Below are positions 36,505 through 64,000 of a DNA stretch of 64,000 bases, piece by piece. Position numbers and translations under genes: made by a program. Origin of the DNA: an uncultured Planctomycetales bacterium (GTDB taxonomy: Bacteria > Planctomycetota > MHYJ01 > JACPRB01); the NCBI GenBank assembly GCA_964619955.1, contig CAZUJF010000002.1, positions 8,155 through 72,154 on the forward strand, read 5' to 3'. Within the stretch, counting starts at the first letter, position 1, and each line of letters opens with the position of its first letter. Below the pieces are notes generated by a model. That model was not told the origin of the DNA and searched no databases. It worked only from the letters and a program-made list of their open reading frames with translations.

Positions 36505-36710
36505 CCCGTGACATGCGCACGTCGAAACGCAGCCCGCTCCGGATCACGCCCTCCCTGCGGCGGAAGATCGACGACCTCGCGCTCTGGCTGGGCGAAGGCC
36601 GCCCCCGGGCGGTCGCCGAGGCCCGCCGCGCCTTCGTCGGACTTCTGACGGAAGCCGCGCGGCAGCCGCTGCTGACGCTGTTGGGCGAGCCCGGCGACCC
36701 TATCCCTTGA
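36471..36710 (+). CDS. small hypothetical protein, possibly ribbon-helix-helix-like
   Basis: 79-aa ORF. LRITPSLRRKIDDLALWLGE has a beta-strand-then-helix pattern like CopG/Arc. It overlaps the ends of both neighbours, so it may be spurious. Confidence 0.25.
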   Translation: MLNPDARHDDTTRDMRTSKRSPLRITPSLRRKIDDLALWLGEGRPRAVAEARRAFVGLLTEAARQPLLTLLGEPGDPIP

Positions 36711-37998
36711 GCGGCAGCTGGTAGGTGAAGCGGAACTCCATGCCCTCGAGACGGGCCTCCGGGAGGATGCTCACCTGCGCCATCTTCAGCACCCGGCCCT
36801 CGGCGTCCTTCACCTCGACGGGCTGGACCTGCACCGCCGTCTCCGGCGACTTCTTCGCCAGGGGTCCGAGGAATTCGAGCAGCTCCGTTCTGAGGAACCC
36901 GGCGCCCGCCTCCCCCGCCGGCATCTCGTCCATCAGGAACGCGCACAGCTGCGCGAGGCGCCCCGCCATCATCTGATACCCGAAGGTCCCCGCGACGGTG
37001 AGCCTGCCGGGCGCGCTGCGGTGGGTGTTCACCGCCAGCGGGATCATGAGCGAGTCCGCGTTCATGCGCCCGCAGAGCGGCGTGAATCCGCCGCGGGCCA
37101 GCTCCTGGACCAGCGTGTCGGGCACCTCGACCTCGGTCGTGAGCGGGACGGACTGGTTCGCGGCCTTGAAGTGCGGCCGGGTGGGCAGGCCCTGGAAGCC
37201 GCCCGAGCGCGGGCCGGTCAGGTCGATCGCATGGCCGATCGCGGCGATGCTCCGGGCGGCGGAGGCCGCCACGATCCACACCCCTCTGCCCCAGAGCCAG
37301 GTTTCGGGTTTCGAAGGGTCGGTCTTCTCCGCGAAGCCCCCCTTGTCCGCCGTGTACGGCATCCGCTGCAGCCAGCGGTTGACCGTGAGCGAGGTCCAGC
37401 GCGCCGTCTCGGACTTCTGGAATTTCTGCCAGGCCGCGTGCGCGCCGTCCATCAGGCGCTGCGGAATGTCCCCGAGTTTCGACAGCAGATTCAGCTGCTT
37501 GAGGCCGAAGAACGCCGCTGAAGCGCCGGCGAGCAGCGGCGCCTGGGCGACCTTCGCCATGTCGCCGAGTTCCGTGAGCGCGGCCAGGTCCGACCCCAGA
37601 TGCGAGTAGTCGTAGTCGGCGATCACGAGCCCCAGGGGCGGCGTGCGCAGCTCGCGCATCTCCGGTTCGAAGACCGCCTCGCGGAAGCGCGCCGCCGCCT
37701 CCTTCGCCGTCGCGCTGAGCACGTCGATGCGGATCCCCTTCGCATGCTCCTGCAGCAGGCGGAGGCCGCGCAGCGCCGATTCGACGCGCTGGAACGCGGG
37801 GTCGTGCAGGACGGCGTCCGAAGCCTGGACCAGCGAGGCTTCGCCGGAGAGTTCGATGCGGCCGCCGCCCGCCTCCACGGAGGGTCGCAGGGCGCCGAGG
37901 ATCGCGTCGAGGCCGCCTTCGGCGGGGATGCGGACCGGATCCTTCGAGAAGAGGCCGAGGTCCGCGAGGACGACGAAGCGCCAGCCGAGGGGTTTCAT
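36700..37998 (-). CDS. fused, truncated TssB/TssC-like contractile-sheath paralog (432 aa)
   Basis: N-terminal WRFVVLADLGLFSKDP resembles the canonical TssB segment FKMLVMGDFTGRTDD. FQRVESALRGLRLL, VIADYDYSHLGSDLAALTELGDMAKVAQAPLLAGASAAFFG and NRWLQRMPY parallel the canonical TssC at 52263 (FQKLESAWRGIKLL, IVANYDFGPGPQDIALLQKLASVATMSHAPFIANAGPKFFG, PRFLLRLPYG). Confidence 0.7.
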   Translation of the reverse strand: MKPLGWRFVVLADLGLFSKDPVRIPAEGGLDAILGALRPSVEAGGGRIELSGEASLVQASDAVLHDPAFQRVESALRGLRLLQEHAKGIRIDVLSATAKEAAARFREAVFEPEMRELRTPPLGLVIADYDYSHLGSDLAALTELGDMAKVAQAPLLAGASAAFFGLKQLNLLSKLGDIPQRLMDGAHAAWQKFQKSETARWTSLTVNRWLQRMPYTADKGGFAEKTDPSKPETWLWGRGVWIVAASAARSIAAIGHAIDLTGPRSGGFQGLPTRPHFKAANQSVPLTTEVEVPDTLVQELARGGFTPLCGRMNADSLMIPLAVNTHRSAPGRLTVAGTFGYQMMAGRLAQLCAFLMDEMPAGEAGAGFLRTELLEFLGPLAKKSPETAVQVQPVEVKDAEGRVLKMAQVSILPEARLEGMEFRFTYQLPLKG

Positions 37999-38007
37999 CA
38001 GGATCTC

Positions 38008-39642
38008 CTATCGCAGGGGAAGCGGGATTTGAAACGAAAGCGCCGAGAGGCCCCGCAGGACGCCCGCCGAGGGCCTCACGGCGACTTCCAGCGCCGGGGG
38101 ATTGCCGGAAGCGGCGACGGCCGTGGTCGTGAAGAGCGGGGCGCCGCCCTCCGACAGGCCCAGCAGGTCGAGCGCGGCCTGGACCGTGCGGGCGATCTCC
38201 TCCGGGCTGCGGGACGGATCGAGGTAGGCCAGAAGCGGCTCGAGGCCCGCCGACACCTGGGCGGCGAACAGGGTCTGGCGGAAGGACGCGCCGGGGCCGC
38301 GGTGGGCCGAGAGGGAGCCCGCGGCGAAGACGCGGTCCGAGTTCCGCCGGCAGGCGAGCGGCAGCAGTCCCGCGTCCGAAAGCGTCTGGACCGCGGCGTC
38401 GTTCAGTTCCGCCTGCAGCGGCAGGGATCCGGCGAGCGGGAGCGGCTCGAGCGCGGCGGCGGCGTCGCGGCCCGCGAAGTCGACGCCCCATCCGTGGCGG
38501 ACGAAGCTGGCGGCGACGAGCGCCGCGACCGCCAGCGAAGCGCCGCCGAGGGACGGATTTCCGGCCCCTTCCTCGAAGGCGAGGCCGCGGACGGGATCGC
38601 CTTCGGCGCCGTAGGGATTGCGGAGGACGAAGCGGTTGCTCGCGAGCGCGAGCCAGCGGGAGGCTTCACCCTCGCGAAGCGAATTCCAGGCGGCCTGCGA
38701 AACGTCCCCGAGCCGGGAGGCGGCCTCGCGGATGGCGGCCTCGACGGCTCCGCCCGCGATGAGCGGGGTCGAGCGTCCGGCGCAGGCGGCCGCCAGCGTC
38801 GCGAGGTCCGCTTCGCCGCCGTCGAAGTCCGCGTCGACGACGAGACAGACCGTCTTCCCCTGGCTGCGGAGGTCCGCGGCGAGCGGCAGGGCCAGGTCGC
38901 GCGTCGAGCGGACGAGGTCGGCGCGATCCGTCGCGACGACGTGCAGCCGGCAGCCTTTTCGGAAATCCAGGGTCCGCACCAGCCAGCGCAATCCCAGCCA
39001 CGCGGCCTCGAGGGCGCGGAAGCGCGGATGACGGAGCGTCGCGAGCAGCAGCGGGGCGACGGCTTCGTCCGCTTTCGCCGCCGCGGCGCGGAGGGCGGCG
39101 GGCAGGGGTCCGGAGGAAGCCGTCCCGAGCACGGCGGCGATCAGGCGTTCCGCGGCCTTCTCGGCGAGGACGGGCGTGGGATCCTGCGGGGCCCCGTCGT
39201 CCACGAGATCGAAGACGCCCCCCCGGGGAACGGGGGCGGCGGGCGCGGCCGGGGCGGGCTTCGGGGCGGCGGGGGCGCCGTGCAGCGCCTCGTCCAGGGC
39301 GCGGACCAGGCCGGGATAACCGTTCAGCGACGCGAGCGCGCCGCGGAGGGATTCCGCGGAACCGTTTCCGGCGGCGAGATCGAGGGCCTGCTGTTTGATC
39401 TGCAGCAGGGCGGCCAGGGCCGGGAGCCGGGCGGCGAGGCGTTCAGGGCGGAAGTCCCTGAACTCGGCGAATTCGAGGCGGGCCCGGCCGCCGGCGAGGT
39501 CCAGATCGATCGCGGGCGCCGCCTCCCGGAGAAAAGCGTCGAGGGAATCCTTGTCGAGCTCGCGGGCGCCCGTCGCGGGGGGCCTTCCGGGCCGGAGATC
39601 CGAGAGCAGGATGAGATGCAGGGACGGCTCCGTCGCTTCCAT
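38008..39642 (-). CDS. fused TssB-TssC-like contractile-sheath paralog (545 aa)
   Basis: N-terminal SLHLILLSDLRPGR...RELDKDSLDAFLREAAP...LEFAEFRDFRPERLAARLPALAALLQ parallels TssB LPFKMLVMGDFTGR...KPVNIDKDNFNDVMRSM...LKFETLKDMEPEAVAKQIPELQKLLE. It is followed by the TssC-like motifs FRALEAAWLGLRWLVRTLDF and SNRFVLRNPYG. Start set at the internal Met MEATEPS. Confidence 0.7.
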   Translation of the reverse strand: MEATEPSLHLILLSDLRPGRPPATGARELDKDSLDAFLREAAPAIDLDLAGGRARLEFAEFRDFRPERLAARLPALAALLQIKQQALDLAAGNGSAESLRGALASLNGYPGLVRALDEALHGAPAAPKPAPAAPAAPVPRGGVFDLVDDGAPQDPTPVLAEKAAERLIAAVLGTASSGPLPAALRAAAAKADEAVAPLLLATLRHPRFRALEAAWLGLRWLVRTLDFRKGCRLHVVATDRADLVRSTRDLALPLAADLRSQGKTVCLVVDADFDGGEADLATLAAACAGRSTPLIAGGAVEAAIREAASRLGDVSQAAWNSLREGEASRWLALASNRFVLRNPYGAEGDPVRGLAFEEGAGNPSLGGASLAVAALVAASFVRHGWGVDFAGRDAAAALEPLPLAGSLPLQAELNDAAVQTLSDAGLLPLACRRNSDRVFAAGSLSAHRGPGASFRQTLFAAQVSAGLEPLLAYLDPSRSPEEIARTVQAALDLLGLSEGGAPLFTTTAVAASGNPPALEVAVRPSAGVLRGLSALSFQIPLPLR

Positions 39643-39736: not shown

Positions 39737-39766
39737 TTTGACACTTCTCGGGGGGACGGGTTAAGA
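39737..39766 (+). promoter_or_regulatory. sigma-70-like promoter candidate TTGACA-N18-TAAGAT in the divergent intergenic region
   Basis: Read from the sequence. It would place the transcription start ~8 nt before the annotated ATG at 39782, implying a near-leaderless mRNA. Confidence 0.25.
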
Positions 39767-39781
39767 TTGTCCGCTCATTCT

Positions 39782-41941
39782 ATGGGTTTGCCCCTACGTC
39801 CCGATGACGCTTCCCGTACGCCCCTTCTCGGGCGTCCCGGCGACCCCCTGAGATTCGAGCTGGATCTCCAGGAGGGGGTCGCGCTGGAGTCCTGCGAAGA
39901 CCCCTTCGTGGCGCTGGGCGATTCCGGGCGGCTGGCGCGCGTGGTGCTCGGACGCCTCGTGTCGGGCGAAGGCACCCTCCTCAAGCCCCTGGCCGTGAAG
40001 CTCCAGCGCAGCTATTACCGTCCGCTGGCCGGCGGGGCGGGCAAGGATCCGCTGACGAATCCGATGATCGAGGAGCGCTGGCGCCGGGAGCGCGAGGCGC
40101 TGGCGAAATGCGCGGGCGGCTCGCTGGTGCCGCTGATCGACCTGGGACCGGCGGGTTTCTCGAGCCGTCCGGTGACGTTCTGCAAGAAGACCCGGGCCTA
40201 CTTTCATCCCCCCTGCCCGCGCTGCGGGGCGCTGCTGGAGGACTGCCGCGACGACGGGCTGCTGCACGAGCACGGCCTGCCCGAATATTCGCGGAGCGCG
40301 ACGCGGTATCTCTACTGCAAGGCCTGCGCTTCCTTCGAGGAGGCGGGCCTGGGCCTGCGGATCTTCTACACGACCGCGCCCGCCGGCGAGGATGCGCCCA
40401 AGGGCGACGCGAACGTGCGGCGCCGCGGCGAGCTCTACCGGGACCTGGGCGCGCTCGTGAACGCCTCGCGGACGGACGAGGAGCGCGCGGCGCTGAGCCG
40501 CAGCTTCCCCTGCGCCGGGTGCCCCCACCGCGAGACGTGTTTTCCCCTGCCCGGCGAGGCGCCGGCGGGCAAGGCGGTCCCCGCCGAGGGCCTGCTCTTC
40601 CCCGTCTCCTACTACGACTTCCACCTCCTGGCGTTCGAGGTGATGGAGCTCCATCTCGACGAGTTCGGGGATCTCCTGGGCGGCGCCTCCTGGGCGGCGC
40701 TCCGGGACCGGGTGCGGCAGGCGGGCAGCGCGGGCCGCGAACGGACCCTGCAGGCCGTGGACGCGCATTACACCGGCCCCGTCCAGTGGCTCTACCAGGA
40801 CGACACGATCGAGCGCTTCGCCCTCGAGGTGCTGCATCTCAAGCTGGCGCTCTTCTCGCAGCTGTGCCGCGGGGTGCGCGAGTACCACGAGAAGGTCCGG
40901 GAGCCGCATCTGCACCTGTCGCCCTCGCAGGTGATGGTGGACGTGCTGCCGGGGGCGACGAATCTTCCCGCCCGCTGGAGCTTCCAGGTCCGGCTGATCG
41001 GCGCCTCGGGGCCGCACCGTTTCGAGCCCCAGGGGCTGCGCGCGGGGCTGCCGGTCCCCGCGCCGGATGCGGACAAGATCTTCCTCTCGCCGTTCGTGCG
41101 CGGCGCGGAGTTCGGGCGCGAGGAGTCGCTGCGCGTCTCGATCCGGTCCCTGCAGCCCGAGGGGGACCAGCTCAAGGTCGAAGGCGTCGCCTCCTCGGAG
41201 CGCGCGCGCCTGGAGACCTGGCAGCCCGGGGACGTGATCCGCGTGGTTCCCACCGGCGGCGCGCTCGAAGGGACGACGCTCTGGGGGACCCTGGAGTGGC
41301 GCGAGGACCAGGGCGTGAAGTTCAGCGCCCTCGTGCCCGCGGGCGCCGTGCCGGATCCCGCGCGGAAGCCGGCGGATTTCGACGCGGGGGTGGCCTGCTT
41401 CCCCCGCTTCGGGGTGGCCTGCGACCTCTATTCGCTCGGACTGCTCCTCTTCCGGTCGCTGCTCGTGAACGACCAGACGACGCTCATCGAGGCCGACGCG
41501 GCGCTGCAGCGCGTGCTGCGCCGGGTGTCGGTCTGGAGCGAAGGCAAGCGGTCGCCCGCCGCCGCGCGCGTGGCGTCGGAGCTGCTGGCGCAGATCGGGC
41601 AGGAACCGGACGTGTTCCAGCCCGGGGCGCTGCTCCACTCGGAGGACGACCGCAACGAGGCCGCGAAGGCGCTGCCGCCGAGACTGTGGTCGGACCTGCT
41701 CCTTTTCGGATTCAAGCTCACGACCTCCATCCCGGGGTTCAGCTTCGCGACGGGGCACGCCGACAGCGTCCCGGACCATCCGGAGGGGCTGATGGACGCC
41801 GTGCGGGCCGAGCTTTCGCAGCTCGAGGCGCGGGTGCGGATCGAGCTCTTCGCCCGCGCCGAGCGGGACCGGGAGATCGGCGAGGTCTGCGACGAGCTGC
41901 TGGCCGAGCTTTCGGGCCCGCCCAAGGCGGGTGCTCCGTGA
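39782..41941 (+). CDS. cytoplasmic protein-kinase-fold protein with degenerate catalytic motifs (pseudokinase-like) and Cys-cluster zinc-ribbon insertions
   Basis: N-lobe-like LGDSGRLARV (G-loop-like) and PLAVKL (beta3 Lys). The catalytic-loop position reads REYHEKVREPHLHLSPSQVMVD (compare HRDLKPENILLD). The DFG position reads VRLIGASGP. The subdomain-IX-like segment is ACDLYSLGLLLFRSL (compare DIWSLGVILYELL). Inserted zinc-ribbon Cys clusters: CPRCG...YCKAC and CAGCPHRETC. Confidence 0.55.
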   Translation: MGLPLRPDDASRTPLLGRPGDPLRFELDLQEGVALESCEDPFVALGDSGRLARVVLGRLVSGEGTLLKPLAVKLQRSYYRPLAGGAGKDPLTNPMIEERWRREREALAKCAGGSLVPLIDLGPAGFSSRPVTFCKKTRAYFHPPCPRCGALLEDCRDDGLLHEHGLPEYSRSATRYLYCKACASFEEAGLGLRIFYTTAPAGEDAPKGDANVRRRGELYRDLGALVNASRTDEERAALSRSFPCAGCPHRETCFPLPGEAPAGKAVPAEGLLFPVSYYDFHLLAFEVMELHLDEFGDLLGGASWAALRDRVRQAGSAGRERTLQAVDAHYTGPVQWLYQDDTIERFALEVLHLKLALFSQLCRGVREYHEKVREPHLHLSPSQVMVDVLPGATNLPARWSFQVRLIGASGPHRFEPQGLRAGLPVPAPDADKIFLSPFVRGAEFGREESLRVSIRSLQPEGDQLKVEGVASSERARLETWQPGDVIRVVPTGGALEGTTLWGTLEWREDQGVKFSALVPAGAVPDPARKPADFDAGVACFPRFGVACDLYSLGLLLFRSLLVNDQTTLIEADAALQRVLRRVSVWSEGKRSPAAARVASELLAQIGQEPDVFQPGALLHSEDDRNEAAKALPPRLWSDLLLFGFKLTTSIPGFSFATGHADSVPDHPEGLMDAVRAELSQLEARVRIELFARAERDREIGEVCDELLAELSGPPKAGAP

Positions 41942-43194: not shown

Positions 43195-43221
43195 GCCGGA
43201 GTGCAAGGAGGAGGAACCGTG

Positions 43222-43665
43222 ATGAAGGCGACGCGAGTCTGGGTGCTGCTGCTGCCGCTGCTGGCGGCCTGCGGCGGCCCGGTGGGGCTGTACGTCCGCG
43301 GCGTCAAGCCGCTGAACGAGAACGACCGCAAGGAGTCGACCCCGGTCGACATCCGCATCTACCAGCTCAAGGACGAGGCGCGCTTCACGAACGCCACGGT
43401 CGAGGACCTCTGGACCAAGGCGCGCGAGGTCCTGGGCGAGGATTACATCGCGCTGAAGCAGGTCACGGTCTTCCCGGGATCCGCGGAGGACAAGGAGGTC
43501 CGGCACGAGCTGGGCGAGCTGCCGGAGTCGGTGCGCTTCATCGGCACGCTGGCGCTCTTCCCCAAGGACGACGGAAAGGGGCCGCGCAAGCTGGCCCTCC
43601 CCCGCAAGGAGGCGAACGGGCGGGTGCTCCGCTTCACGGGCAGCCACATCGAACTCGAACCTTAG
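43222..43665 (+). CDS. tssJ: T6SS outer-membrane lipoprotein TssJ
   Basis: Lipobox LLAACGG, VDIRIYQLKD motif, ~148 aa, located just before tssK. Confidence 0.75.
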   Translation: MKATRVWVLLLPLLAACGGPVGLYVRGVKPLNENDRKESTPVDIRIYQLKDEARFTNATVEDLWTKAREVLGEDYIALKQVTVFPGSAEDKEVRHELGELPESVRFIGTLALFPKDDGKGPRKLALPRKEANGRVLRFTGSHIELEP

Positions 43666-57546: not shown

Positions 57547-60142
57547 CCGCTTCTGCACGCGGTCGCTGGAGGCCGCCGCGGGCCTCTGCATCTCGCGGAC
57601 CCATTACGAGGTCACGCCGGAACACCTGCTGCTCGCGTTCTCCGAGGACGTCACGGCGGACGTCCAGCAGATCTACAAGCACTTCGGCGTGGACGCGGGC
57701 AGGGTCCAGAAGGGCCTCTCGCAGGTCCTGGACACGCTCAAGACGGGCAACGCGGGGCGCCCCGTGTTCTCGCCCCTGCTCGTGGAATGGATCCAGCAGG
57801 GCTGGCTCTGCGCCTCGCTCGATTTCGGCCTCGCGGAGATCCGCTCGGGCGTGATGCTCCAGGCGCTGCTCGCCAACGCGAGCCGCCTGGGGGCGGACGA
57901 GGTCGTGACGCTCCTGGAGGGGATCAACCGCCTCGACCTCAAGGCGAAGTACTCGACGATCATCGCGAACTCCTCGGAGCAGTCGCGCCGCATGGGCGCG
58001 GGGGAGGCCACGAGCGGCGCCGGGGCTGCGTCCGCGGCGCCCACGGGAGAGGGCGCGCTCGCCAAGTTCGCGAACAACTTCACGCAGCAGGCGCGCGACG
58101 GGAAGATCGACCCGGTCTTCGGGCGCGACCGCGAGATCCGCCAGATGATCGACATCCTGGCGCGGCGCCGGAAGAACAATCCCATCTGCGTCGGCGAGCC
58201 GGGGGTCGGCAAGACCGCCGTCGTGGAAGGCCTGGCCCTGAAGGTGGTCGAGGGGGACGTGCCGGACGCGCTCAAGAACGTCGAGGTGCTCGGCCTCGAC
58301 ATCGGCCTGCTGCAGGCCGGCGCGAGCGTGAAGGGCGAGTTCGAGAACCGCCTCAAGGGGGTGATCGAGGAGGTCAAGGCCTCCCCGAAGCCGGTCATCC
58401 TCTTCATCGACGAGGCGCACACGCTGATCGGCGCCGGGGGCGCCGCGGGCGGCGGCGACGCCGCGAACCTGCTCAAGCCCGCGCTCGCGCGCGGCGAGCT
58501 GCGGACGATCGCCGCGACCACCTGGAGCGAGTACAAGAAGTACTTCGAGAAGGACGCCGCCCTCGCACGCCGCTTCCAGCTGGTCAAGCTCGACGAGCCG
58601 GACGAGGCGACGACGGTGACCATGCTCCGCGGTCTGCGCGACCGCTACGAAAAGGCCCACGGGGTCGTGATCCGCGACGAGGCGCTCACCGCGGCCGCCC
58701 AGCTGGGCAGCCGCTACATCGCGGGCCGCCAGCATCCGGACAAGGGCGTGGACCTCATGGACACGAGCGCGGCGCGCGTGAAGATCGCGCTGACGACGAA
58801 GCCTCCCGAAATCCAGGATCTGGACCGCCGGGTGCAGGAGCTCGAGCGCGAGCAGGCGGCCCTGACGCGGGACCGCCAGGGCGGCAACAAGGGCCTCGAC
58901 GAGCGCCTGGCCGAGGCGGCGAAGGAAGTGACGGCGGCGAAGGCGAGGATCGCCGAGCTGACCGCGCGCTGGCAGAAGGAGAAGGCCGCGGTCGAGAAGG
59001 TCCTCGCCGTCCGAAAGAAGATCGACGGGCCCGAGGGGAAGAAGGACGCCGCGAAGCTGGCGCCCGAGCTCGAATCGGCCCTCCTGGCGCTCAAGGAGAT
59101 CCAGGGCCGCGATCCCATGATGTTCGCCGAGGTGACGCCCGAGGTGGTGGCCCGCGTGGTCGCCGACTGGACGGGCATCCCCATCGGGAAGATGGTGCAG
59201 GACCAGGCCCAGGCGCTGCTCACGTTCGAGCAGAACCTGCGGCAGCGCATCAAGGGGCAGGATCACGTCTCCTCGATGGTCGGCACGGGCATCCGCGCCG
59301 CGAAGGCGGGCCTCAAGAACCCGCGCACGCCCATGGGCGTCTTCCTCTTCGTCGGCCCCTCGGGCGTCGGCAAGACCGAGACGGCCCTCGGCGTGGCGGA
59401 CCTGCTCTTCGGCGGCGAGCGCTTCCTCACGGTCATCAACATGTCGGAGTTCCAGGAGAAGCACACGGTTTCCCGGCTCATCGGCTCGCCCCCGGGCTAC
59501 GTCGGTTACGGCGAGGGCGGCGTGCTCACCGAGGCGGTGCGGCAGAAGCCGTATTCCGTCGTGCTCCTGGACGAATGCGAGAAGGCCGACCCGGAGGTCC
59601 TCAACCTCTTCTACCAGGTCTTCGACAAGGGCATGCTGTCGGACGGCGAGGGCCGCGAGGTCGACTTCAAGGACACCGTCCTCTTCCTCACGAGCAACCT
59701 GGCGACGGACCTCATCATGCAGAGCGTCGCGGACGGCTCGCGGCCGCCGATGGAGGATCTCATCGCGCTGATCCGTCCGGCGCTCTCGAAGCACTTCAAG
59801 CCCGCGCTGCTGGCGCGCATGACGATCATCCCCTTCTACCCCATCGGGCAGGACGCGCTGAAGGAGATCACCCGGCTCAAGCTCGGGCAGCTCGAGAAGC
59901 GGCTCAAGCAGAACCACAAGATGGCGATGGACGTGGACCCGAAGGTCGTCGACGCGATCGCCGAGCGCTGCACCGAGGTGGAGACCGGCGCGCGCAACGT
60001 GGACCACATCATCTCGGGCACGCTGCTGCCGAAGATCTCGAACGAGATCCTCCAGCAGATGGCCACGGGGACGATGCCGGACCGGATCTCGGTGACGCTG
60101 GACGCCAAGGGCGATTTCGGGTTCGCCTTCTCGAAGAAGTAG
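57506..60142 (+). CDS. clpV: T6SS AAA+ ATPase ClpV (TssH)
   Basis: N-domain LKALVARLD...CR..LE.AA, followed by two AAA modules (GEPGVGKTA, GPSGVGKTE). 878 aa. Confidence 0.95.
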   Translation: MADVNLKALVARLDRFCTRSLEAAAGLCISRTHYEVTPEHLLLAFSEDVTADVQQIYKHFGVDAGRVQKGLSQVLDTLKTGNAGRPVFSPLLVEWIQQGWLCASLDFGLAEIRSGVMLQALLANASRLGADEVVTLLEGINRLDLKAKYSTIIANSSEQSRRMGAGEATSGAGAASAAPTGEGALAKFANNFTQQARDGKIDPVFGRDREIRQMIDILARRRKNNPICVGEPGVGKTAVVEGLALKVVEGDVPDALKNVEVLGLDIGLLQAGASVKGEFENRLKGVIEEVKASPKPVILFIDEAHTLIGAGGAAGGGDAANLLKPALARGELRTIAATTWSEYKKYFEKDAALARRFQLVKLDEPDEATTVTMLRGLRDRYEKAHGVVIRDEALTAAAQLGSRYIAGRQHPDKGVDLMDTSAARVKIALTTKPPEIQDLDRRVQELEREQAALTRDRQGGNKGLDERLAEAAKEVTAAKARIAELTARWQKEKAAVEKVLAVRKKIDGPEGKKDAAKLAPELESALLALKEIQGRDPMMFAEVTPEVVARVVADWTGIPIGKMVQDQAQALLTFEQNLRQRIKGQDHVSSMVGTGIRAAKAGLKNPRTPMGVFLFVGPSGVGKTETALGVADLLFGGERFLTVINMSEFQEKHTVSRLIGSPPGYVGYGEGGVLTEAVRQKPYSVVLLDECEKADPEVLNLFYQVFDKGMLSDGEGREVDFKDTVLFLTSNLATDLIMQSVADGSRPPMEDLIALIRPALSKHFKPALLARMTIIPFYPIGQDALKEITRLKLGQLEKRLKQNHKMAMDVDPKVVDAIAERCTEVETGARNVDHIISGTLLPKISNEILQQMATGTMPDRISVTLDAKGDFGFAFSKK

Positions 60143-60160: not shown

Positions 60161-61186
60161 CTACTTGACGAGCCCGTGCAGGGTCTTCGCCAGGCCGAAC
60201 TTCTCCCACTTGCTGTTCACCGAGTTCTTGAATTTCTCGAAGCGGCCCAGACCCCGGAATTTCCAGACGTTCGTCGAGAGGCCGTTGAGCTTCAACCTCG
60301 AGCCGCGGATGAGCTTGCCCGCGTGATTCTGGACGTACTCCAGGTCCGGGCGGATCTGCTCGATCTTCGTCATCCAGCCGGGCAGGCCGATGTCCGCGAT
60401 CATGAAGGACAGCAGGTCGCTGGTGTTCGACTCCGTGAGCAGGTAGGCGCCGAGGATGGGCGAGTCCTTGAAGACGTCGACGTTGAGCTTGTCCGCGTTC
60501 TTCAGGGCGTCGTTGCCGTCGAGCATCTCGTGGATGTCGCGCGCCCAGAGGTAGAGCGACTGGCAGAGGTTCGCGATCGTCTTGGCTGCCCCGGCGACCG
60601 GGCCCGAGATGGCCCCGCCGTCCACGAAGAACATGCCCGCCGTGGTGGCGGCGTGCGCGGCGTTGATCGAGCCCTTCACCAGGTTCTCGTTCCGCGCGCG
60701 GTCGAGCATCTCGCGGATCGCCCCGCAGGCGGCGAGCGGATCGCCCGACCGCACCACCGCGGACTTGTTCTTCACCTGGTGCTCCTGCCAGGCGCGGCGC
60801 GCGGCCTGGCCGAAATAGCGGACCGCCTGGGCGCCGCTCTCGATGGAGCCCAGGCAGGGGACGGCGCTGATGAAACACTGCACTTCCTTCAGGATCTGGC
60901 TGAAGGCGGGCCCGAGGAGCGGCGCGTACTGGGTCCAGTCGCCGTTGAAGAGGTCCTTCAGCAGGCTTTCCGCCTGGGCCTTGGCGAGGGGGCCGCCGAT
61001 CTTGCCGAGCGATTTCTCGACGTCCTTGACCGCGTCGATGAGGTTGCCCGACTGCTTGACGTGATCCAGAGTGCTGATGCTCAGGGAGCAGCCGCCGAAG
61101 GTCTCCTGCAGCAGCTCCCGCCGCGCCCTGGCCAGCTCGGCCATGGCCTTGAATTCGCCCATGCTGAGTCCGGGCATGATCGGCAC
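60161..61186 (-). CDS. hypothetical protein between clpV and vgrG, on the opposite strand
   Basis: 341-aa ORF with no signal peptide and no recognised motif, convergent with clpV. Confidence 0.5.
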   Translation of the reverse strand: MPIMPGLSMGEFKAMAELARARRELLQETFGGCSLSISTLDHVKQSGNLIDAVKDVEKSLGKIGGPLAKAQAESLLKDLFNGDWTQYAPLLGPAFSQILKEVQCFISAVPCLGSIESGAQAVRYFGQAARRAWQEHQVKNKSAVVRSGDPLAACGAIREMLDRARNENLVKGSINAAHAATTAGMFFVDGGAISGPVAGAAKTIANLCQSLYLWARDIHEMLDGNDALKNADKLNVDVFKDSPILGAYLLTESNTSDLLSFMIADIGLPGWMTKIEQIRPDLEYVQNHAGKLIRGSRLKLNGLSTNVWKFRGLGRFEKFKNSVNSKWEKFGLAKTLHGLVK

Positions 61187-61408: not shown

Positions 61409-61436
61409 TTGACAGCGTCCCCCTGCGGGGTAGGAT
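61409..61436 (+). promoter_or_regulatory. sigma-70-like promoter candidate TTGACA-N16-TAGGAT upstream of vgrG
   Basis: Read from the sequence, ~25 nt upstream of the SD GGAGG and the ATG at 61460. Confidence 0.35.
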
Positions 61437-61459: not shown

Positions 61460-63880
61460 ATGGCTGAGGTGACCCGGACCTTCCATTTCCACAGCGACGC
61501 GGTCCCCGACGAGACGTTCATGGTCTCGGGCATGAAGGGGGTCGAGGAGCTCAACCGGCCCTACGAGTTCCAGATCGAGCTGGTCTCGAAGAAGGCGGAC
61601 GTCGATCTCGAGAAGGTCCTGAAGAACAAGGCCCATCTCGCCGTGCGGCAGACCATCCCCCTGAGCGGGGGAAAGCAGGGCACCCGCCTCTACAAGATCC
61701 ACGGGATCGTGTCCTCCATCGAGGTGCTGGAACAGGCCCGCGAATTCGTCCATTACCGCGTCCAGCTGCAGCCGCGCCTCTGGAAACTCTCGCTCACCAC
61801 GCAGAGCCGCGTCTTCCAGGACATGAAGATCGGGGACCTGATCAAGGAGGTCCTCACGAAGGCGGAAGGCGCGGGGCTCTCGACCCAGGATTTCGACCTC
61901 AAGCTCAACGCCGACTACGTGAAACGCGAGTTCGTCGTCCAGTACAACGAATCGGACCTGGACTTCCTCCACCGCTGGTGCGAGCACGAGGGCGTCTATT
62001 ACTACTTCGAGCAGACGGAGAACGGCGAGAAGCTCGTGTTCGGCGACGCCACGGCGGGCTACGCGAAGCTGCCGGGCGACCCGAAGATCCCCTACCGGCC
62101 CGTGCCGGAGGGGCGCAGCAAGGCCTCGGGGGCGATGAACGAGGAGACCCTCCAGGAGCAGTCCGTCTTCGCCTTCCGCTGCCGCTGGACGAAGACGCCG
62201 CAGAAGGTGATCCTGAAGGACTACAACTACCGCACCCCCTCCGTCGACGTGAAGGCCGAGGCCGCCGTCGAGAACCCGGCCGGCGACGGCAAGGTCTTCA
62301 TGTACGGGGAGCATTTCAAGACGCCCGCGGAGGGAGGCGCCATCGCCAAGGTCCGCGCGGAGGCCTTCCAGTGCCGCGACAAGGTCTTCGAGGGCACGGG
62401 CGACCACCGCTCCTTCCGTCCGGGCACCGTCTTCACGCTCTCCGAGCATTTCCGCGCCGACTTCAACGCCGCCTACTGCATCACCCGGGTCTCGCACAAA
62501 CTCGTGCAGGGCACCACGGCGTCGCTGGGCGGCGGCGGCCAGGCGACCTACGAGAACGAGTTCGCCTGCTTCCCCTCGGCCGACGTCTTCCGCCCCGAGC
62601 GCACGACCCCGTGGCCCTCGATCTACGGATTCATGAACGCCAGGGTCGATGCGGGCGGCAGCGGCGAGTACGCGGAGATCGACGACCAGGGACGCTACAA
62701 GATCAAGCTGCCCTTCGACCTCTCCGACAAGAAGGACGGCAAGGCCTCCCGCTACCTGCGCATGGCGCAGCCCTATGCGGGGGCGAACATGGGCATGCAC
62801 TTCCCCCTCCACAAGGGCACCGAGGTCCTGCTCGGCTTCGTGGACGGCGACGTGGACCGCCCCATCATCGCGTCGGCCATCCCCAACGCCGAGACCGGCG
62901 GGCCCGTCGCCTCCGGGAACCAGACCCAGTGCGCCATCGCCACCGGCGGCGGCAGCCGGATGGTGGTCGAGGACACCGACGGCAGCCAGCGCATCCACCT
63001 CTCCACCCCCACGCAGACCACGTTCCTCCAGATCGGCGCGAAGACCGACGGCGGCGGCGGCAGCACCGGCGCCGCGGGCTGCTCGGGCGCGGCCGCGCCG
63101 GGCTCCGAGGACGGCGTCAGCATGGGCACCGAGGCCGACATCACGTTCCAGAGCGCGCGGGACTACGTGCACAGCACCGGCCGCGACGTCAGCATCCAGA
63201 CGGCCGGCAACTCGCACACGATCACCAAGGGCGACAGCTCGTCGGAGACGCACGGCAACACCAAGACCTGGACGAAGGGCAACACGGACTCCGAAACCAT
63301 CGGCAACAGCACCTCCAAGGTCACGGGCAATTCGGAAAGCGACGTCACCGGGAATTCGAAGAGCACCGTCGTGGGCAACTCCACGAGCAAGGTCGTCGGC
63401 GACACGGATTCGACCTTCGTGGGCAAATCGATCTCGAAGTCGATGGCCATCACGGAAGAGCTCTTCATGGGAAACAAGAATTCCCAGAGCCTTGCGGTCA
63501 CGACGGAGCTCTTCGTCGGCGCCAAGATGTCCTCCACGATGGCGGCGGTCATGGAGGCCAACAAGGGCCCCAAGGTCACGATCTGCGACGTGACGAACCT
63601 CAAGACGGCCGCCCAGAAGCTCGAGGAGGTCACCGGCCCCAATGAAATCAAGGGCGGCACGATCACGATCGACGCCACCACCGCGATGACGCTGGAGGGC
63701 GGGACGTCCATCACGATCAAGTGCGGCCCCAGCGAGATCAAGATCGGCCCCTCGGGGATCGAGATCAAGGGCCCGCAGATCAAGTTCGACGCCTCGGGCA
63801 TGCTCGAGGCGAAATCCGGCGGCGTCGTGAAGATCCAGGGCTCCGCGCTCGACGTGAACGGCCAGGCGCTTCACAAATAG
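61460..63880 (+). CDS. vgrG: T6SS spike protein VgrG (TssI)
   Basis: 806 aa. N-terminal gp27-like region (NRPYEFQIELVS, RVSHKLVQG), gp5-like OB fold, and C-terminal beta-helix repeats GNSTSKVTGNSESDVTGNSKSTVVGNS. Confidence 0.95.
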   Translation: MAEVTRTFHFHSDAVPDETFMVSGMKGVEELNRPYEFQIELVSKKADVDLEKVLKNKAHLAVRQTIPLSGGKQGTRLYKIHGIVSSIEVLEQAREFVHYRVQLQPRLWKLSLTTQSRVFQDMKIGDLIKEVLTKAEGAGLSTQDFDLKLNADYVKREFVVQYNESDLDFLHRWCEHEGVYYYFEQTENGEKLVFGDATAGYAKLPGDPKIPYRPVPEGRSKASGAMNEETLQEQSVFAFRCRWTKTPQKVILKDYNYRTPSVDVKAEAAVENPAGDGKVFMYGEHFKTPAEGGAIAKVRAEAFQCRDKVFEGTGDHRSFRPGTVFTLSEHFRADFNAAYCITRVSHKLVQGTTASLGGGGQATYENEFACFPSADVFRPERTTPWPSIYGFMNARVDAGGSGEYAEIDDQGRYKIKLPFDLSDKKDGKASRYLRMAQPYAGANMGMHFPLHKGTEVLLGFVDGDVDRPIIASAIPNAETGGPVASGNQTQCAIATGGGSRMVVEDTDGSQRIHLSTPTQTTFLQIGAKTDGGGGSTGAAGCSGAAAPGSEDGVSMGTEADITFQSARDYVHSTGRDVSIQTAGNSHTITKGDSSSETHGNTKTWTKGNTDSETIGNSTSKVTGNSESDVTGNSKSTVVGNSTSKVVGDTDSTFVGKSISKSMAITEELFMGNKNSQSLAVTTELFVGAKMSSTMAAVMEANKGPKVTICDVTNLKTAAQKLEEVTGPNEIKGGTITIDATTAMTLEGGTSITIKCGPSEIKIGPSGIEIKGPQIKFDASGMLEAKSGGVVKIQGSALDVNGQALHK

Positions 63881-63886
63881 CGTCCG

Positions 63887-64000
63887 ATGGAGATCGTCAA
63901 CGCCACGCCCTGGCCCTTCGCGGTGCTTCCCGGAAAAGTGCGCTCGCAGGGGTGGACCGCCTCGCTGGTGGCGAAGGCGTCGTTCGCGCTGAAGCCCGGC
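63887..64000 (+). CDS. DUF2169-family T6SS adaptor protein (3'-truncated at window edge)
   Basis: ATG at 63887. MEIVNATPWPFAVLPGKVRSQGW matches the conserved DUF2169 N-terminus. No stop before the window end, so it is absent from the ORF track. Confidence 0.6.
   Translation, partial: MEIVNATPWPFAVLPGKVRSQGWTASLVAKASFALKPG

What the first reader, a model, noticed from the sequence alone, without database searches (positions are those of the whole stretch)
36700..64000. Complete type VI secretion system locus
All 13 core components are present in one ~27-kb block: tssJ, tssK, tssL, tssM, tssA, tssB, tssC, hcp, tssE, tssF, tssG, clpV and vgrG. Accessory genes fha and tagF are also present, with a DUF2169 adaptor gene starting at the window edge. 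The order is fha-tssJKLM-tagF-tssABC-hcp-tssEFG-clpV, then an oppositely oriented orphan gene, then vgrG. Several junctions show translational coupling: GTGA, ATGA, and the overlaps tssF/tssG and tssG/clpV. No PAAR gene lies within the window. The cargo effector and immunity genes are probably just beyond 64 kb.
Basis: partly seen in the sequence, partly recalled or inferred. Interest (0 to 1): 0.6.

Follow-up and report, generated by a model that had tools for sequence, protein, structure and literature searches.

The report
Complete T6SS locus with extra sheath paralogues

Summary
All 13 T6SS core genes plus tagH (fha) and tagF lie at 41938-63880 in the stated order. They pass curated NCBIfam or Pfam cut-offs; Hcp passes only through Pfam and a PDB match. 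An identical public contig (L001) extends 8.6 kb past the window. It confirms the DUF2169 gene at the edge and shows a Class III Tvp spike-loading module ending in a 137-aa PAAR-like protein, but no recognisable toxin/immunity pair.

The first 5.2 kb of the block (36700-41937) is not fha. It holds three unrecognised genes:
- shS (432 aa) and shL (544 aa), two minus-strand sheath paralogues. shL is a single-chain TssB-TssC fusion.

These accessory genes stay linked to T6SS clusters in uncultured Planctomycetota, and shS/shL also in Eisenbacteria. The "orphan" gene is not an orphan: it has 355 cluster representatives and no annotation.

Verdict: a canonical T6SSi with a lineage-specific, apparently undescribed accessory set. 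Interest is moderate.

The parts
36700..37998 (-). shS: 432-aa sheath-like paralogue. It has a minimal TssB-like N-terminal strand fused to a TssC core and no ClpV-helix counterpart.
   Evidence: Pfam VipB 141 bits. TIGR03355 gives 135.6 bits, below the 271.5 cut-off. It is 28% identical to TssC residues 74-356. The family profile hits solved TssC/VipB/IglB sheaths. About 118 homologues at 38-71% identity.
38008..39642 (-). shL: 544-aa single-chain TssB-TssC-like fusion with a Pro/Ala linker that carries the conserved motif G-G-x-F-D-L-V-D.
   Evidence: Pfam VipA + VipB. AF2 pLDDT 85.5. Foldseek top hits are T6SS TssC/VipB, target-normalised TM 0.59-0.70. The motif aligns to the TssC 'GSILDDIM' region.
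39738..39767 (+). Sigma-70-like promoter candidate (TTGACA-18-TAAGAT) in the 139-bp divergent intergenic region.
   Evidence: the only hit in 18 kb (0.4 expected). It lies 15 nt upstream of the ATG at 39782. This is a consensus match only.
39782..41941 (+). 719-aa soluble protein with a Hanks-kinase fold, predicted to be a pseudokinase. It has a Cys-rich insert (~116-270) and a beta-sandwich insert (447-540). It is translationally coupled to tagH.
41938..43194 (+). tagH (fha): FHA domain plus the T6SS_FHA_C domain.
   Evidence: TIGR03354 149 bits vs cut-off 120. Pfam FHA + T6SS_FHA_C. The GR...SxxH...TNG pThr-binding residues are present. GTGA overlap with the upstream gene.
43201..43665 (+). 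tssJ, outer-membrane lipoprotein.
   Evidence: TIGR03352 58.3 vs 31.6 bits. Lipobox LAAC.
43675..45024 (+). tssK, baseplate.
   Evidence: TIGR03353 409.7 bits.
45028..45699 (+). tssL (DotU), short form without a peptidoglycan-binding domain.
   Evidence: TIGR03349 163.8 bits. One C-terminal TM-like segment.
45713..49099 (+). tssM (IcmF).
   Evidence: TIGR03348 670 bits. Three TM-like segments.
49099..50031 (+). tagF. The ATG shares one base with the tssM stop (TGATG).
   Evidence: The third-codon-position GC profile identifies this frame. TIGR03373 92 vs 41.2 bits; Pfam TagF_N 96.6 bits.
50132..51688 (+). tssA, long form (ImpA_N + VasJ C-terminal domain).
   Evidence: TIGR03362 333 bits. Pfam ImpA_N + T6SS_VasJ.
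51727..52224 (+). tssB. The start is more likely the ATG at 51733, after GAGGAGG.
   Evidence: TIGR03358 191 bits. Start-codon analysis.
52263..53744 (+). tssC, the canonical sheath large subunit, with the N-terminal 'GSILDDIMVQTKL' helix region.
   Evidence: TIGR03355 693 bits. The best PDB match is M. xanthus TssC 5urw, 757 bits.
53837..54307 (+). hcp (tssD), divergent. It is followed by a very stable hairpin at about 54315-54361.
   Evidence: Pfam T6SS_HCP 31.1 vs 23.5 bits. PA0085 Hcp1 E 2.9e-7 over residues 6-138. Hairpin -48.3 kcal/mol, z -5.8.
54372..54785 (+). tssE (gp25-like).
   Evidence: TIGR03357 96.6 bits.
54791..56527 (+). tssF.
   Evidence: TIGR03359 619 bits.
56491..57546 (+). 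tssG. GTG start after GGGGAGG; 37-nt overlap with tssF.
   Evidence: TIGR03347 323 bits. Junction.
57506..60142 (+). clpV (tssH). 41-nt overlap with tssG.
   Evidence: TIGR03345 1201 bits vs cut-off 885.
60161..61177 (-). It has a Gly-rich core at about residues 100-300.
   Evidence: No Pfam/NCBIfam/PADLOC/PDB hit. 355 cluster representatives at E<=1e-3 and 224 at E<=1e-10.
61409..61436 (+). Sigma-70-like promoter candidate (TTGACA-16-TAGGAT) upstream of vgrG.
   Evidence: Consensus match only.
61460..63880 (+). vgrG (tssI), 806 aa, with a long C-terminal beta-prism-type extension.
   Evidence: TIGR03361 355.5 bits. Pfam Phage_GPD + Phage_base_V.
63887..64000 (+). 5' end (38 codons) of a 760-aa DUF2169 + pentapeptide-repeat gene (TvpAB-like).
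   Evidence: The fragment alone gives no hit. The full gene on the identical contig L001 scores DUF2169 283 bits and Pentapeptide 187 bits.

Best explanation
The region is a complete, canonical (T6SSi-type) type VI secretion system of an uncultured, probably planctomycete, bacterium. It sits among chromosomal housekeeping genes.

How it works. The steps below are inferred from the established roles of the families, not shown here.
- TssJ, TssL and TssM form the envelope-spanning membrane complex.
- TssE, TssF, TssG, TssK and VgrG form the baseplate and spike.
- Hcp forms the inner tube and TssB/TssC the contractile sheath, primed and capped by the long-form TssA.
- TagH (FHA) and TagF provide post-translational control of assembly.
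- Just past the window, a Class III Tvp set (DUF2169-pentapeptide TvpAB, pentapeptide TvpB, DUF3540 TvpC) loads a small PAAR-like (DUF4150-type) tip onto the long 806-aa VgrG.

Three lineage-specific accessory genes sit at the upstream end.
1. A soluble protein with a Hanks-kinase fold. In this genome it lacks the catalytic Asp, the catalytic Asn and the DFG Asp, so it is most likely a pseudokinase. It is translationally coupled to tagH and fused to TagH in one relative. I infer that it replaces the PpkA/PppA phosphorylation switch as a binding partner or scaffold of TagH (about 0.5).
2. shL, a single-chain TssB-TssC fusion. It lacks the TssB N-terminal arm but keeps a conserved motif at the position of the ClpV-binding helix.
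3. shS, a shorter TssC core with only a vestigial TssB strand and no ClpV motif.

I infer that shL and shS are structural accessories of the same machine. Most likely they form a specialised layer or end of the sheath, or a nucleating or capping element, by analogy with the several sheath paralogues of extracellular contractile injection systems (about 0.35-0.4).
For: Core system.
- All 13 core families plus TagH and TagF are detected above curated cut-offs.
- The genes lie on one strand with short gaps or overlaps.
- Membrane features are as expected: TssJ lipobox, one TM in TssL, three in TssM.
- Promoter-like sites fall exactly in the two intergenic regions that would start transcription units.
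- TssC is closest to M. xanthus and V. cholerae sheaths among solved structures.
- The Tvp module sits on the identical contig L001 and matches the Class III definition in PMC13373197.
- The flanks are housekeeping genes.

Pseudokinase.
- The beta3 Lys and a candidate alphaC Glu are conserved. The HRD-position Asp is His in this genome, the Asn is absent family-wide, and DFG reads 'IGAS' here.
- There is no TM-like segment.
- The stop/start overlap with tagH is GTGA.
- Synteny with tagH is conserved in L002, L005 and L006.
- P0177 is a 1116-aa fusion with FHA + T6SS_FHA_C.

Sheath paralogues.
- Sequence: Pfam VipA/VipB domains and profile hits to solved T6SS sheaths.
- Structure: the shL model matches TssC/VipB with target-normalised TM 0.59-0.70.
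- Conservation: intact and conserved in about 118 (shS) and 77 (shL) cluster representatives.
- Linkage: next to T6SS genes wherever the contig is long enough to tell, in Planctomycetota and Eisenbacteria, at different positions in the cluster. Canonical tssC (and in L012 also tssB) is present on the same contig in L012 and L024.
- Architecture: domain mapping.
Against: - Nothing here shows expression, assembly or secretion. The organism is uncultured.
- Hcp is unusually divergent.
- No toxin/immunity pair is identified in the window or in the 8.6 kb beyond it.
- The roles proposed for shL/shS and the pseudokinase rest only on fold, motifs, gene linkage and one gene fusion.
- shS occurs without a detectable adjacent shL in several Eisenbacteria loci, so the two need not act as an obligate pair.
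- TagH keeps an intact phosphothreonine-binding pocket. That argues some active kinase still feeds the system, and that the kinase-like protein might itself be a phospho-substrate or retain non-canonical activity.
- Some divergent family members keep HxD and a D[LV][GA] motif, so the family may not be uniformly inactive.
- The subtype (i1-i5) was not determined phylogenetically.
Confidence: 0.85

Rival explanations
1. shL and shS are decaying leftovers of a duplicated tssBC pair and have no function. The locus is then simply a standard T6SS.
For: Both score far below the TssC equivalog cut-off (135.6 and 88.9 vs 271.5 bits). Both have lost N-terminal segments. In L025 both are split by frameshifts.
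Against: - The ORFs are intact, with coding-type third-position GC of 0.87-0.93.
- There are 118 and 77 cluster representatives, with identity down to about 40% across two phyla.
- Many columns are invariant (42 of 432 in A1).
- The shL fold prediction is confident.
- A linear motif is conserved inside an otherwise variable linker.
- The fused architecture is itself conserved.
- The L025 frameshifts may be assembly errors.
Confidence: 0.07
2. shL and shS belong to a separate, non-T6SS apparatus that merely neighbours T6SS clusters. An example would be a sheath-like cytoskeletal or envelope-associated polymer.
For: In Eisenbacteria they sit in a same-strand operon with CsgG/TPR lipoproteins, a peptidoglycan-binding TPR protein, an outer-membrane beta-barrel, a 1261-aa Ig-repeat protein and DUF922. 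In the window they are transcribed divergently from the T6SS operon. shS can occur without an adjacent shL.
Against: - No second tube, baseplate or spike gene set accompanies them.
- The same Eisenbacteria operon continues into DUF2169 (Tvp-type) T6SS accessory genes and abuts vgrG-clpV.
- The linkage to T6SS persists across phyla even though the position changes.
- shL keeps a motif at the ClpV-binding position.
Confidence: 0.2
3. The 719-aa kinase-fold protein is an active, atypical Ser/Thr kinase. It would be the functional equivalent of PpkA and would phosphorylate a TagH ligand.
For: Kinase fold. The beta3 Lys and alphaC Glu are conserved. TagH keeps its pThr-binding residues. No other kinase or PP2C phosphatase is present in the window. 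Divergent family members keep HxD and D[LV][GA].
Against: In this genome the HRD-position Asp is His and DFG is 'IGAS'. The catalytic-loop Lys and Asn are absent in the whole family. The HRD-position Asp is replaced in 8 of the 25 aligned members. The Pfam Pkinase model does not hit even at E 0.5.
Confidence: 0.2
4. The cluster is complete on paper but not a working weapon. It could be a silent system or one without effectors.
For: No toxin/immunity pair was recognised in the window or in the 8.6 kb downstream. The PAAR-like protein has no toxin extension. Hcp is divergent.
Against: - All genes are intact with strong coding signal.
- In the S. marcescens Class III Tvp system, the VgrG1-Paar1 spike delivers a membrane-depolarising activity with no separate effector identified (PMC13373197).
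- Effectors are commonly encoded elsewhere in the genome.
- The 338-aa Gly-rich family gene next to vgrG is an untested effector candidate.
Confidence: 0.1

Closest known systems
Canonical T6SSi, as structurally characterised in Myxococcus xanthus (PDB 5urw/5urx) and Vibrio cholerae (VipA/VipB, 3j9g)
   Same: It has the same 13 core families, a TssJLM membrane complex, a long-form TssA, ClpV, and a TssC with an N-terminal ClpV-helix region. TssC scores 757 bits to M. xanthus TssC and about 710 bits to V. cholerae VipB.
   Different: It adds two sheath paralogues and a TagH-coupled kinase-fold gene. Hcp is unusually divergent. The host phylum (Planctomycetota, by the labels of the nearest relatives) has no experimentally studied T6SS that I could find in the held literature.
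Class III Tvp spike-loading system of Serratia marcescens Db10 (TvpAB, TvpB, TvpC, Paar1; PMC13373197)
   Same: The gene order after vgrG is the same: DUF2169+pentapeptide, a pentapeptide protein, DUF3540, then a small DUF4150/Tox-PAAR-like protein. VgrG is long at 806 aa.
   Different: No Vai1-like (DUF3192) immunity gene lies between vgrG and tvpAB; the gap is 6 nt. Only the first 38 codons are inside the window. Assignment is by domain content only; no phylogeny or complex modelling was done.
PpkA-PppA-Fha1 threonine-phosphorylation pathway (P. aeruginosa H1-T6SS, Agrobacterium; e.g. PMC3953482)
   Same: A Hanks-fold protein is encoded with the T6SS FHA protein TagH, and TagF is also present. 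TagH keeps its pThr-binding residues.
   Different: The kinase-fold protein is soluble, with no TM or periplasmic domain. It carries Cys-rich and beta-sandwich inserts, lacks the catalytic Asp, Asn and DFG in this genome, and is invisible to the Pfam Pkinase model. There is no PppA (PP2C). The PpkA architecture used for comparison is from my own knowledge.
Multiple sheath paralogues of extracellular contractile injection systems (Afp2/3/4 of AFP, Pvc2/3/4 of PVC)
   Same: More than one sheath-family protein is encoded per machine. In eCIS (from my own knowledge) one paralogue forms a specialised baseplate-proximal layer. AFP/PVC sheath chains appear as weak structural matches to shL (ranks 11-35).
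   Different: shL and shS belong to the T6SS VipA/VipB family, not the phage/eCIS sheath family. They are single-chain TssB-TssC fusions, and their location in the machine is unknown.

Membership tests
T6SSi (13 core components, TXSScan/SecReT6-type definition) | TssJ, TssL and TssM membrane complex genes | tested here: met
   TIGR03352 58.3 bits, TIGR03349 163.8 bits, TIGR03348 670 bits, all above their cut-offs. Lipobox and TM-like segments.
T6SSi (13 core components, TXSScan/SecReT6-type definition) | Baseplate genes TssE, TssF, TssG, TssK | tested here: met
   TIGR03357 96.6, TIGR03359 619, TIGR03347 323, TIGR03353 410 bits.
T6SSi (13 core components, TXSScan/SecReT6-type definition) | Sheath TssB/TssC, tube Hcp, spike VgrG | tested here: met
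   TIGR03358 191, TIGR03355 693, TIGR03361 355 bits. Hcp passes only through the Pfam gathering score (31.1 vs 23.5) and the PA0085 match; it is below the TIGR03344 cut-off.
T6SSi (13 core components, TXSScan/SecReT6-type definition) | TssA and the ClpV ATPase | tested here: met
   TIGR03362 333 bits; TIGR03345 1201 bits.
T6SSi (13 core components, TXSScan/SecReT6-type definition) | Phylogenetic subtype (i1-i5) from a core-gene tree | not tested
   No reference set was available. The only indication is that TssC is closest to M. xanthus and V. cholerae among solved structures.
T6SSi (13 core components, TXSScan/SecReT6-type definition) | Hcp/VgrG export and contact-dependent activity | not testable with these tools
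   This needs an experiment.
TagH (T6SS FHA protein) and TagF | FHA + T6SS_FHA_C domains; TagF_N domain | tested here: met
   TIGR03354 149 vs 120 bits; Pfam FHA 69 and T6SS_FHA_C 89 bits. TIGR03373 92 vs 41 bits in frame 49099-50031.
TssC / VipB (contractile sheath large subunit) - for shS and shL | Score above the equivalog cut-off of TIGR03355 | tested here: not met
   135.6 bits (shS) and 88.9 bits (shL) against a cut-off of 271.5. They are paralogues, not TssC equivalogs.
TssC / VipB (contractile sheath large subunit) - for shS and shL | VipB N-terminal domain (PF05943) and the sheath fold | tested here: met
   PF05943 141 and 91 bits against a gathering score of 27. The shL model matches 5urw/5urx/3j9g with probability 1.00 and target-normalised TM 0.65-0.70. 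The shS profile hits eight solved sheath chains.
TssC / VipB (contractile sheath large subunit) - for shS and shL | C-terminal gpW/gp25-like domain (PF18945) | tested here: inconclusive
   There is no Pfam hit. However, the shS profile aligns to IglB up to residue 491 of 506, the C-terminal hairpin pattern aligns, and the shL model has the terminal strands.
TssC / VipB (contractile sheath large subunit) - for shS and shL | N-terminal ClpV-binding helix (PMC5048182) | tested here: inconclusive
   shL has a conserved GGxFDLVD motif that aligns with the TssC 'GSILDDIM' region. shS has no counterpart. Binding was not tested.
TssB / VipA - for the N-terminal parts of shL and shS | Full-length VipA, including the N-terminal interlocking arm | tested here: not met
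   shL matches only VipA profile positions 54-140 of 155 and scores 26 bits against the 97-bit TIGR03358 cut-off. Both paralogues start at the TssB core strand and lack about 28 N-terminal residues.
PpkA (T6SS Hanks-type Ser/Thr kinase) - for the 719-aa protein | Protein-kinase fold | tested here: met
PpkA (T6SS Hanks-type Ser/Thr kinase) - for the 719-aa protein | Catalytic motifs HRDxKxxN and DFG; Pfam Pkinase match | tested here: not met
   The window protein reads 'HLHLSPSQV' and 'LIGASG'. The Asn and Lys are absent family-wide. There is no Pfam hit at E<=0.5.
PpkA (T6SS Hanks-type Ser/Thr kinase) - for the 719-aa protein | Transmembrane segment and periplasmic sensor domain (architecture from my own knowledge) | tested here: not met
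   There is no hydrophobic 19-residue stretch above 1.6 on the Kyte-Doolittle scale. The whole chain folds as a soluble multi-domain protein.
Class III Tvp accessory system (PMC13373197) | TvpAB (DUF2169 + pentapeptide repeats), a separate pentapeptide TvpB, a DUF3540 TvpC and a DUF4150-type PAAR, all downstream of vgrG | tested here: met
   On L001, which is identical to the window over 4506 nt: DUF2169 283 bits + Pentapeptide 187; Pentapeptide 360; DUF3540 82.8; Tox-PAAR-like 114 bits. The definition is quoted.
Class III Tvp accessory system (PMC13373197) | Pre-complex with TvpC that VgrG then replaces | not testable with these tools
   This needs biochemistry or multimer modelling.

The most novel reading that the evidence does not exclude
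This T6SS lineage (uncultured Planctomycetota, and in part Eisenbacteria) builds its contractile apparatus with two extra single-chain TssB-TssC-type subunits, shL and shS. These would form a dedicated sheath layer, collar or cap that is unknown in any studied T6SS. The lineage would also gate assembly through a TagH-bound pseudokinase in place of the PpkA/PppA phospho-switch. That would be a structurally and regulatorily distinct T6SS variant.
Probability: 0.3. Interest if true: 0.7.

Novelty: new variant of a known kind. Interest (0 to 1): 0.45.

Why it matters
As a T6SS, the locus adds a complete, cleanly organised example from a phylum with no experimental T6SS model that I could find.

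The more useful result is the accessory set.
- T6SS sheaths are described as built from one TssB/TssC pair. Conserved extra fused sheath subunits would raise a question: do T6SSs, like extracellular injection systems, use specialised sheath layers for initiation, termination or anchoring?
- A pseudokinase coupled to TagH, and in one case fused to it, would be a new way of controlling T6SS firing. It would also give a function to a protein family that domain databases cannot see.

Both ideas can be tested directly by multimer modelling, heterologous expression and pull-downs.

Tried and rejected
- **Wrong tagF frame.** ORF 49194-50144 was taken as tagF and gave no hit. The third-codon-position GC profile showed it is the wrong frame; the real gene is 49099-50031.
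- **Wrong start for the kinase-fold gene.** The TTG start at 39395 (848 aa) was rejected. It would overlap shL on the opposite strand, and the homologues are 700-720 aa. The ATG at 39782 is used instead.
- **The 'orphan' gene.** Pfam, NCBIfam, PADLOC, PDB by sequence and PDB by profile gave nothing significant. The exhaustive representative search showed a large uncharacterised family.
- **ClpV helix in the paralogues.** I first concluded that both paralogues lack the ClpV-binding helix. I revised this for shL after finding the conserved GGxFDLVD motif in its linker.
- **A second contractile system in Eisenbacteria?** I considered that shL/shS might be the sheath of a complete second system. 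Pfam on the operon showed envelope proteins and DUF2169 genes, but no tube or baseplate.
- **Literature.** Searches for T6SS sheath paralogues or fusions, T6SS pseudokinases, and T6SS in Planctomycetota or Eisenbacteria found no description of these genes. That is absence in the held library only.
- **Source record.** The 327,936-bp NCBI contig that carries the identical proteins was not returned by the look-ups, so the exact source record and species name were not obtained.

Full report
**Approach and gene map**

The window is about 70% G+C, so mechanical ORF lists are crowded with spurious frames. I used third-codon-position GC to pick the coding frame everywhere. I then tested each call against Pfam and NCBIfam.

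| Coordinates | Strand | Gene |
|---|---|---|
| 36700-37998 | - | shS |
| 38008-39642 | - | shL |
| 39782-41941 | + | 719-aa kinase-fold gene |
| 41938-43194 | + | tagH |
| 43201-43665 | + | tssJ |
| 43675-45024 | + | tssK |
| 45028-45699 | + | tssL |
| 45713-49099 | + | tssM |
| 49099-50031 | + | tagF |
| 50132-51688 | + | tssA |
| 51727/51733-52224 | + | tssB |
| 52263-53744 | + | tssC |
| 53837-54307 | + | hcp |
| 54372-54785 | + | tssE |
| 54791-56527 | + | tssF |
| 56491-57546 | + | tssG |
| 57506-60142 | + | clpV |
| 60161-61177 | - | 338-aa gene |
| 61460-63880 | + | vgrG |
| 63887-64000 | + | first 38 codons of a DUF2169 gene |

- **Core genes.** Twelve of the 13 core genes exceed NCBIfam curated cut-offs, most by a wide margin. 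Examples are TssC 693 vs 271.5 bits, TssF 619 vs 260, ClpV 1201 vs 885 and TssM 670 vs 388.
- **Hcp.** Hcp is the exception. It scores 16.7 bits against TIGR03344, but 31.1 against a Pfam gathering score of 23.5. It also aligns over residues 6-138 with P. aeruginosa Hcp1 (E 2.9e-7).
- **tagH and tagF.** TagH passes (149 vs 120 bits). The ORF that a mechanical list offers between tssM and tssA (49194-50144) hits nothing. The GC3 profile shows the real frame is 49099-50031, whose ATG shares one base with the tssM stop (TGATG). That protein is TagF (TIGR03373 92 vs 41 bits; Pfam TagF_N 96.6 bits).
- **Junctions.** GTGA sits between the kinase-fold gene and tagH. tssM/tagF is TGATG. tssF/tssG overlap by 37 nt, assuming the GTG at 56491 preceded by GGGGAGG. 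tssG/clpV overlap by 41 nt. I did not find an ATGA junction.
- **PAAR.** No PAAR or PAAR-like domain appeared in any of the roughly 55 genes I called across the whole window. tblastn with the downstream PAAR-like protein also found nothing.
- **Context.** The upstream 36 kb is housekeeping: MoxR/DUF58, a histidine kinase and sigma-54 regulator, purC, ruvC, PEPCK, a Liv-type ABC transporter, gatCA, a lactonase and a PMT_2 glycosyltransferase. The cluster is therefore chromosomal.

**Beyond the window**

An exact-sequence look-up of VgrG returned a 12,976-bp contig (L001, Logan SRR13076506). It is 100% identical to window 59495-64000 over 4506 nt.

After vgrG it encodes, in order:
- a 760-aa DUF2169 + pentapeptide-repeat protein (283 and 187 bits);
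- a 614-aa pentapeptide-repeat protein;
- a 174-aa DUF3540 protein;
- a 137-aa Tox-PAAR-like protein.

This is exactly the Class III Tvp spike-loading module defined in 2026 for Serratia marcescens: TvpAB, TvpB, TvpC and Paar1, associated with long VgrGs (PMC13373197).

So the DUF2169 call and the 'PAAR just outside' guess are right. The expected effector/immunity pair is not there. The next genes are a convergent AbiEii/AbiEi pair and a PIG-L gene. In the Serratia system the VgrG1-Paar1 spike delivers a membrane-depolarising activity and no separate effector was identified, so the absence of a classical toxin gene need not mean a disarmed system.

**The missed 5.2 kb: two sheath paralogues**

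That ORF is on the minus strand and is a VipB-domain protein, not fha.

*shS (432 aa)*
- It aligns with TssC residues 74-356 at 28% identity.
- A profile of its family hits all solved T6SS sheath large subunits, including IglB through to its C-terminus.
- Its first ~60 residues carry only a vestige of TssB.

*shL (544 aa)*
- Residues 1-~120 are TssB-like (Pfam VipA, profile positions 54-140).
- A Pro/Ala-rich disordered linker follows, then a TssC-like body aligning with TssC from about residue 32.
- Its AF2 model is confident (pLDDT 85.5, pTM 0.83).
- The best structural matches are M. xanthus TssC, V. cholerae VipB and P. aeruginosa TssC1, with target-normalised TM 0.62-0.70 over 406-462 columns. 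Phage and eCIS sheaths match far more weakly.

*Shared and distinguishing features*
- Both paralogues begin at the TssB core strand (LPFKMLVMGDF ~ LHLILLSDL ~ WRFVVLADL). They therefore lack the first ~28 residues of TssB. From my knowledge of the VipA/VipB structures, that segment is the N-terminal arm that interlocks neighbouring protomers.
[quoted passage not shown] The canonical TssC here has 'GSILDDIMVQTKL'. shS has nothing equivalent.
- shL has a nearly invariant P-x-G-[GS]-x-F-D-L-V-D motif in its otherwise variable linker, and this motif aligns with that TssC region.
- Both score far below the TssC/TssB equivalog cut-offs, so they are paralogues, not replacements. The canonical tssB/tssC pair is present in the same locus.

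**Distribution of the paralogues**

- shS has about 118 cluster representatives at 38-71% identity and shL has 77.
- Names, where given, are Planctomycetota, Eisenbacteria and Sulfotelmatobacter MAGs.
- A scan of one genome per species found 23 loci. All are MAGs: Planctomycetota, Candidatus Eisenbacteria, one Deltaproteobacteria bin and several unclassified bins.
- tblastn and HMM mapping show that the Planctomycetota loci L002, L005 and L006 have the window's arrangement: shL-shS divergent from kinase-fold gene-tagH-tssJKL(M).
- In Eisenbacteria the pair lies at the other end of the cluster, next to vgrG-clpV-tssGF. Canonical tssC, and in L012 also tssB, is present further along (L012, L024).
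- There shL and shS are embedded in a same-strand operon: CsgG/TPR, a peptidoglycan-binding TPR protein, an outer-membrane beta-barrel, a 1261-aa Ig-repeat protein, shL, DUF922, shS, a 180-aa protein, DUF2169, a 296-aa protein and DUF2169.
- In several Eisenbacteria loci shS is present with no shL in the available flank.

Linkage to T6SS genes, kept while the position changes, argues for a functional connection. No second tube or baseplate set accompanies the paralogues.

**The kinase-fold gene**

- The 719-aa protein upstream of tagH has no hit in Pfam (even at E 0.5), NCBIfam, PADLOC or PDB sequences.
- Its family has 58 members, all labelled 'hypothetical' and all Planctomycetota where named.
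- With a 26-sequence alignment, AF2 gave pLDDT 83.8 and pTM 0.84.
- Motif inspection across the family shows:
  - a conserved beta3 Lys ('AVK'), a candidate alphaC Glu and the subdomain-IX Asp ('CDLYSLG');
  - a catalytic loop reading P-H-L-[D/H/A/N/R/G]-L-S-P-x-x-V, with no Lys and no Asn;
  - the window's protein with 'HLH' at the HRD position and 'LIGASG' in place of DFG;
  - a few divergent members that keep HLD and D[LV][GA].
- So the lineage looks like a kinase that has decayed into a pseudokinase, and the window's copy is predicted to be inactive.
- It has no TM-like segment. It carries a Cys-rich insert with nine conserved Cys (~116-270) and a beta-sandwich insert (447-540).
- It overlaps tagH by GTGA and keeps that synteny in relatives.
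- In P0177 it is fused in the same order to FHA + T6SS_FHA_C, which is a Rosetta-stone argument for a physical partnership with TagH.
- TagH itself keeps the GR...SxxH...TNG phosphothreonine-binding residues, and no PP2C or recognisable kinase lies elsewhere in the window.

**The 'orphan'**

- The minus-strand gene between clpV and vgrG has no family, defence-system or structure match.
- An exhaustive HMMER scan of 1.84 billion cluster representatives found 355 relatives at E<=1e-3 and 224 at E<=1e-10.
- The conserved core (about residues 100-300) is often C-terminal in 400-520-aa proteins.
- It contains a Gly-rich stretch (GG..DGGA.SGP..G) and a 'CP.LGCY' motif.
- It is an uncharacterised family, not an ORFan. 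Its role is open: an effector, an immunity protein or an accessory protein.

**Mechanism and confidence**

That this is a complete T6SSi is about as certain as sequence analysis allows. The mechanism of the core follows from the established roles of the families and is inference, not something shown here.

- **Pseudokinase.** I favour a TagH-binding scaffold that substitutes for the PpkA/PppA switch (about 0.5). The main rival is an atypical active kinase (about 0.2).
- **shL/shS.** I favour a structural accessory of the sheath: a specialised layer, collar, nucleator or cap (about 0.35-0.4). The reasons are that they are single-chain sheath protomers lacking the donor arm of TssB, that only shL keeps a ClpV-type motif, and that eCIS machines set a precedent for specialised sheath paralogues. 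Rivals are an independent polymer that merely neighbours T6SS (about 0.2) and non-functional relics (below 0.1).

**Novelty and limits**

The core and the Tvp module are known kinds. Six full-text searches found no description of extra fused T6SS sheath paralogues or of a TagH-coupled pseudokinase. The held library is incomplete, so this is not proof of novelty.

Limits of this work:
- There is no expression or functional evidence.
- The organism is uncultured and was not named; relatives are 63% identical at best in the species-representative genomes.
- No subtype phylogeny was done.
- No multimer models were made.
- afdb50 was unavailable.

Noticed in passing
window 60161-61177 (-): The gene called an 'orphan' belongs to a large unannotated family: 355 cluster representatives at E<=1e-3. 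It has a Gly-rich 'GG..DGGA.SGP..G' stretch and a 'CP.LGCY' motif. The core is often the C-terminal part of 400-520-aa proteins, and P0319 (1013 aa) contains the core twice. It could be an effector-type domain.
   Followed up: partly
window 54315-54361 (+), between hcp and tssE: A very stable GC-rich hairpin lies right after the hcp stop (-48.3 kcal/mol, z -5.8, 0 of 200 shuffles as stable), with no U-tract. It could stabilise or attenuate the hcp transcript end. A weaker structure (z -3.1) lies between tssC and hcp.
   Followed up: partly
L001 9559-11303 (-), about 5-7 kb beyond the window end: An AbiEii/AbiEi type IV toxin-antitoxin pair lies convergent to the Tvp-PAAR module, followed by a PIG-L deacetylase gene. 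This marks the end of the T6SS island.
   Followed up: no
L009 1-15055; also L011 and L013 (Candidatus Eisenbacteria MAGs): shL and shS sit in a conserved 11-gene operon: CsgG/TPR lipoproteins, a PG_binding_1-TPR protein, an OMP beta-barrel, a 1261-aa HYDIN/ASH Ig-repeat protein, DUF922 between shL and shS, and two DUF2169 genes. This is a different neighbourhood from the window's.
   Followed up: partly
P0177 (1116 aa, Logan contig of 16 kb): This is a natural fusion of the kinase-fold protein (35% identity, 96% of the query covered) with FHA + T6SS_FHA_C (TagH). It keeps a D-L-G motif at the DFG position, but has Gly at the HRD Asp position.
   Followed up: partly
L025 7620-11347 (Eisenbacteria MAG MFD02923): Both shL and shS are split across frames in this long-read-style assembly. 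These are either frameshift assembly errors or real pseudogenes.
   Followed up: no
window 36513-36710 (+): A 65-aa ORF with coding-like GC3 overlaps the 3' end of shS by 11 nt on the opposite strand. It is called as a gene on the Logan contigs (L003/L004 2289-2486) and has no Pfam hit.
   Followed up: no
window 30000-31400: This stretch has lower GC (0.634) and no clear coding frame. The ORFs 30013-30342 and 30352-30834 have no Pfam hit. It lies between gatA and an alpha/beta hydrolase gene.
   Followed up: no
window 9075-11625 (+): A HAMP histidine kinase and an NtrC-type sigma-54 response regulator lie about 28 kb upstream of the T6SS. T6SS clusters are sometimes sigma-54 dependent (my own knowledge), but I did not search for a sigma-54 promoter. 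The promoter-like sites found at the T6SS units are sigma-70-like.
   Followed up: no
window 27279-28178 (-): This 299-aa ORF has only a weak, sub-threshold partial Peripla_BP_6 match (25 bits against a cut-off of 31.7). It lies next to the intact Liv-type binding-protein gene at 25935-27149 and may be a degraded duplicate.
   Followed up: no
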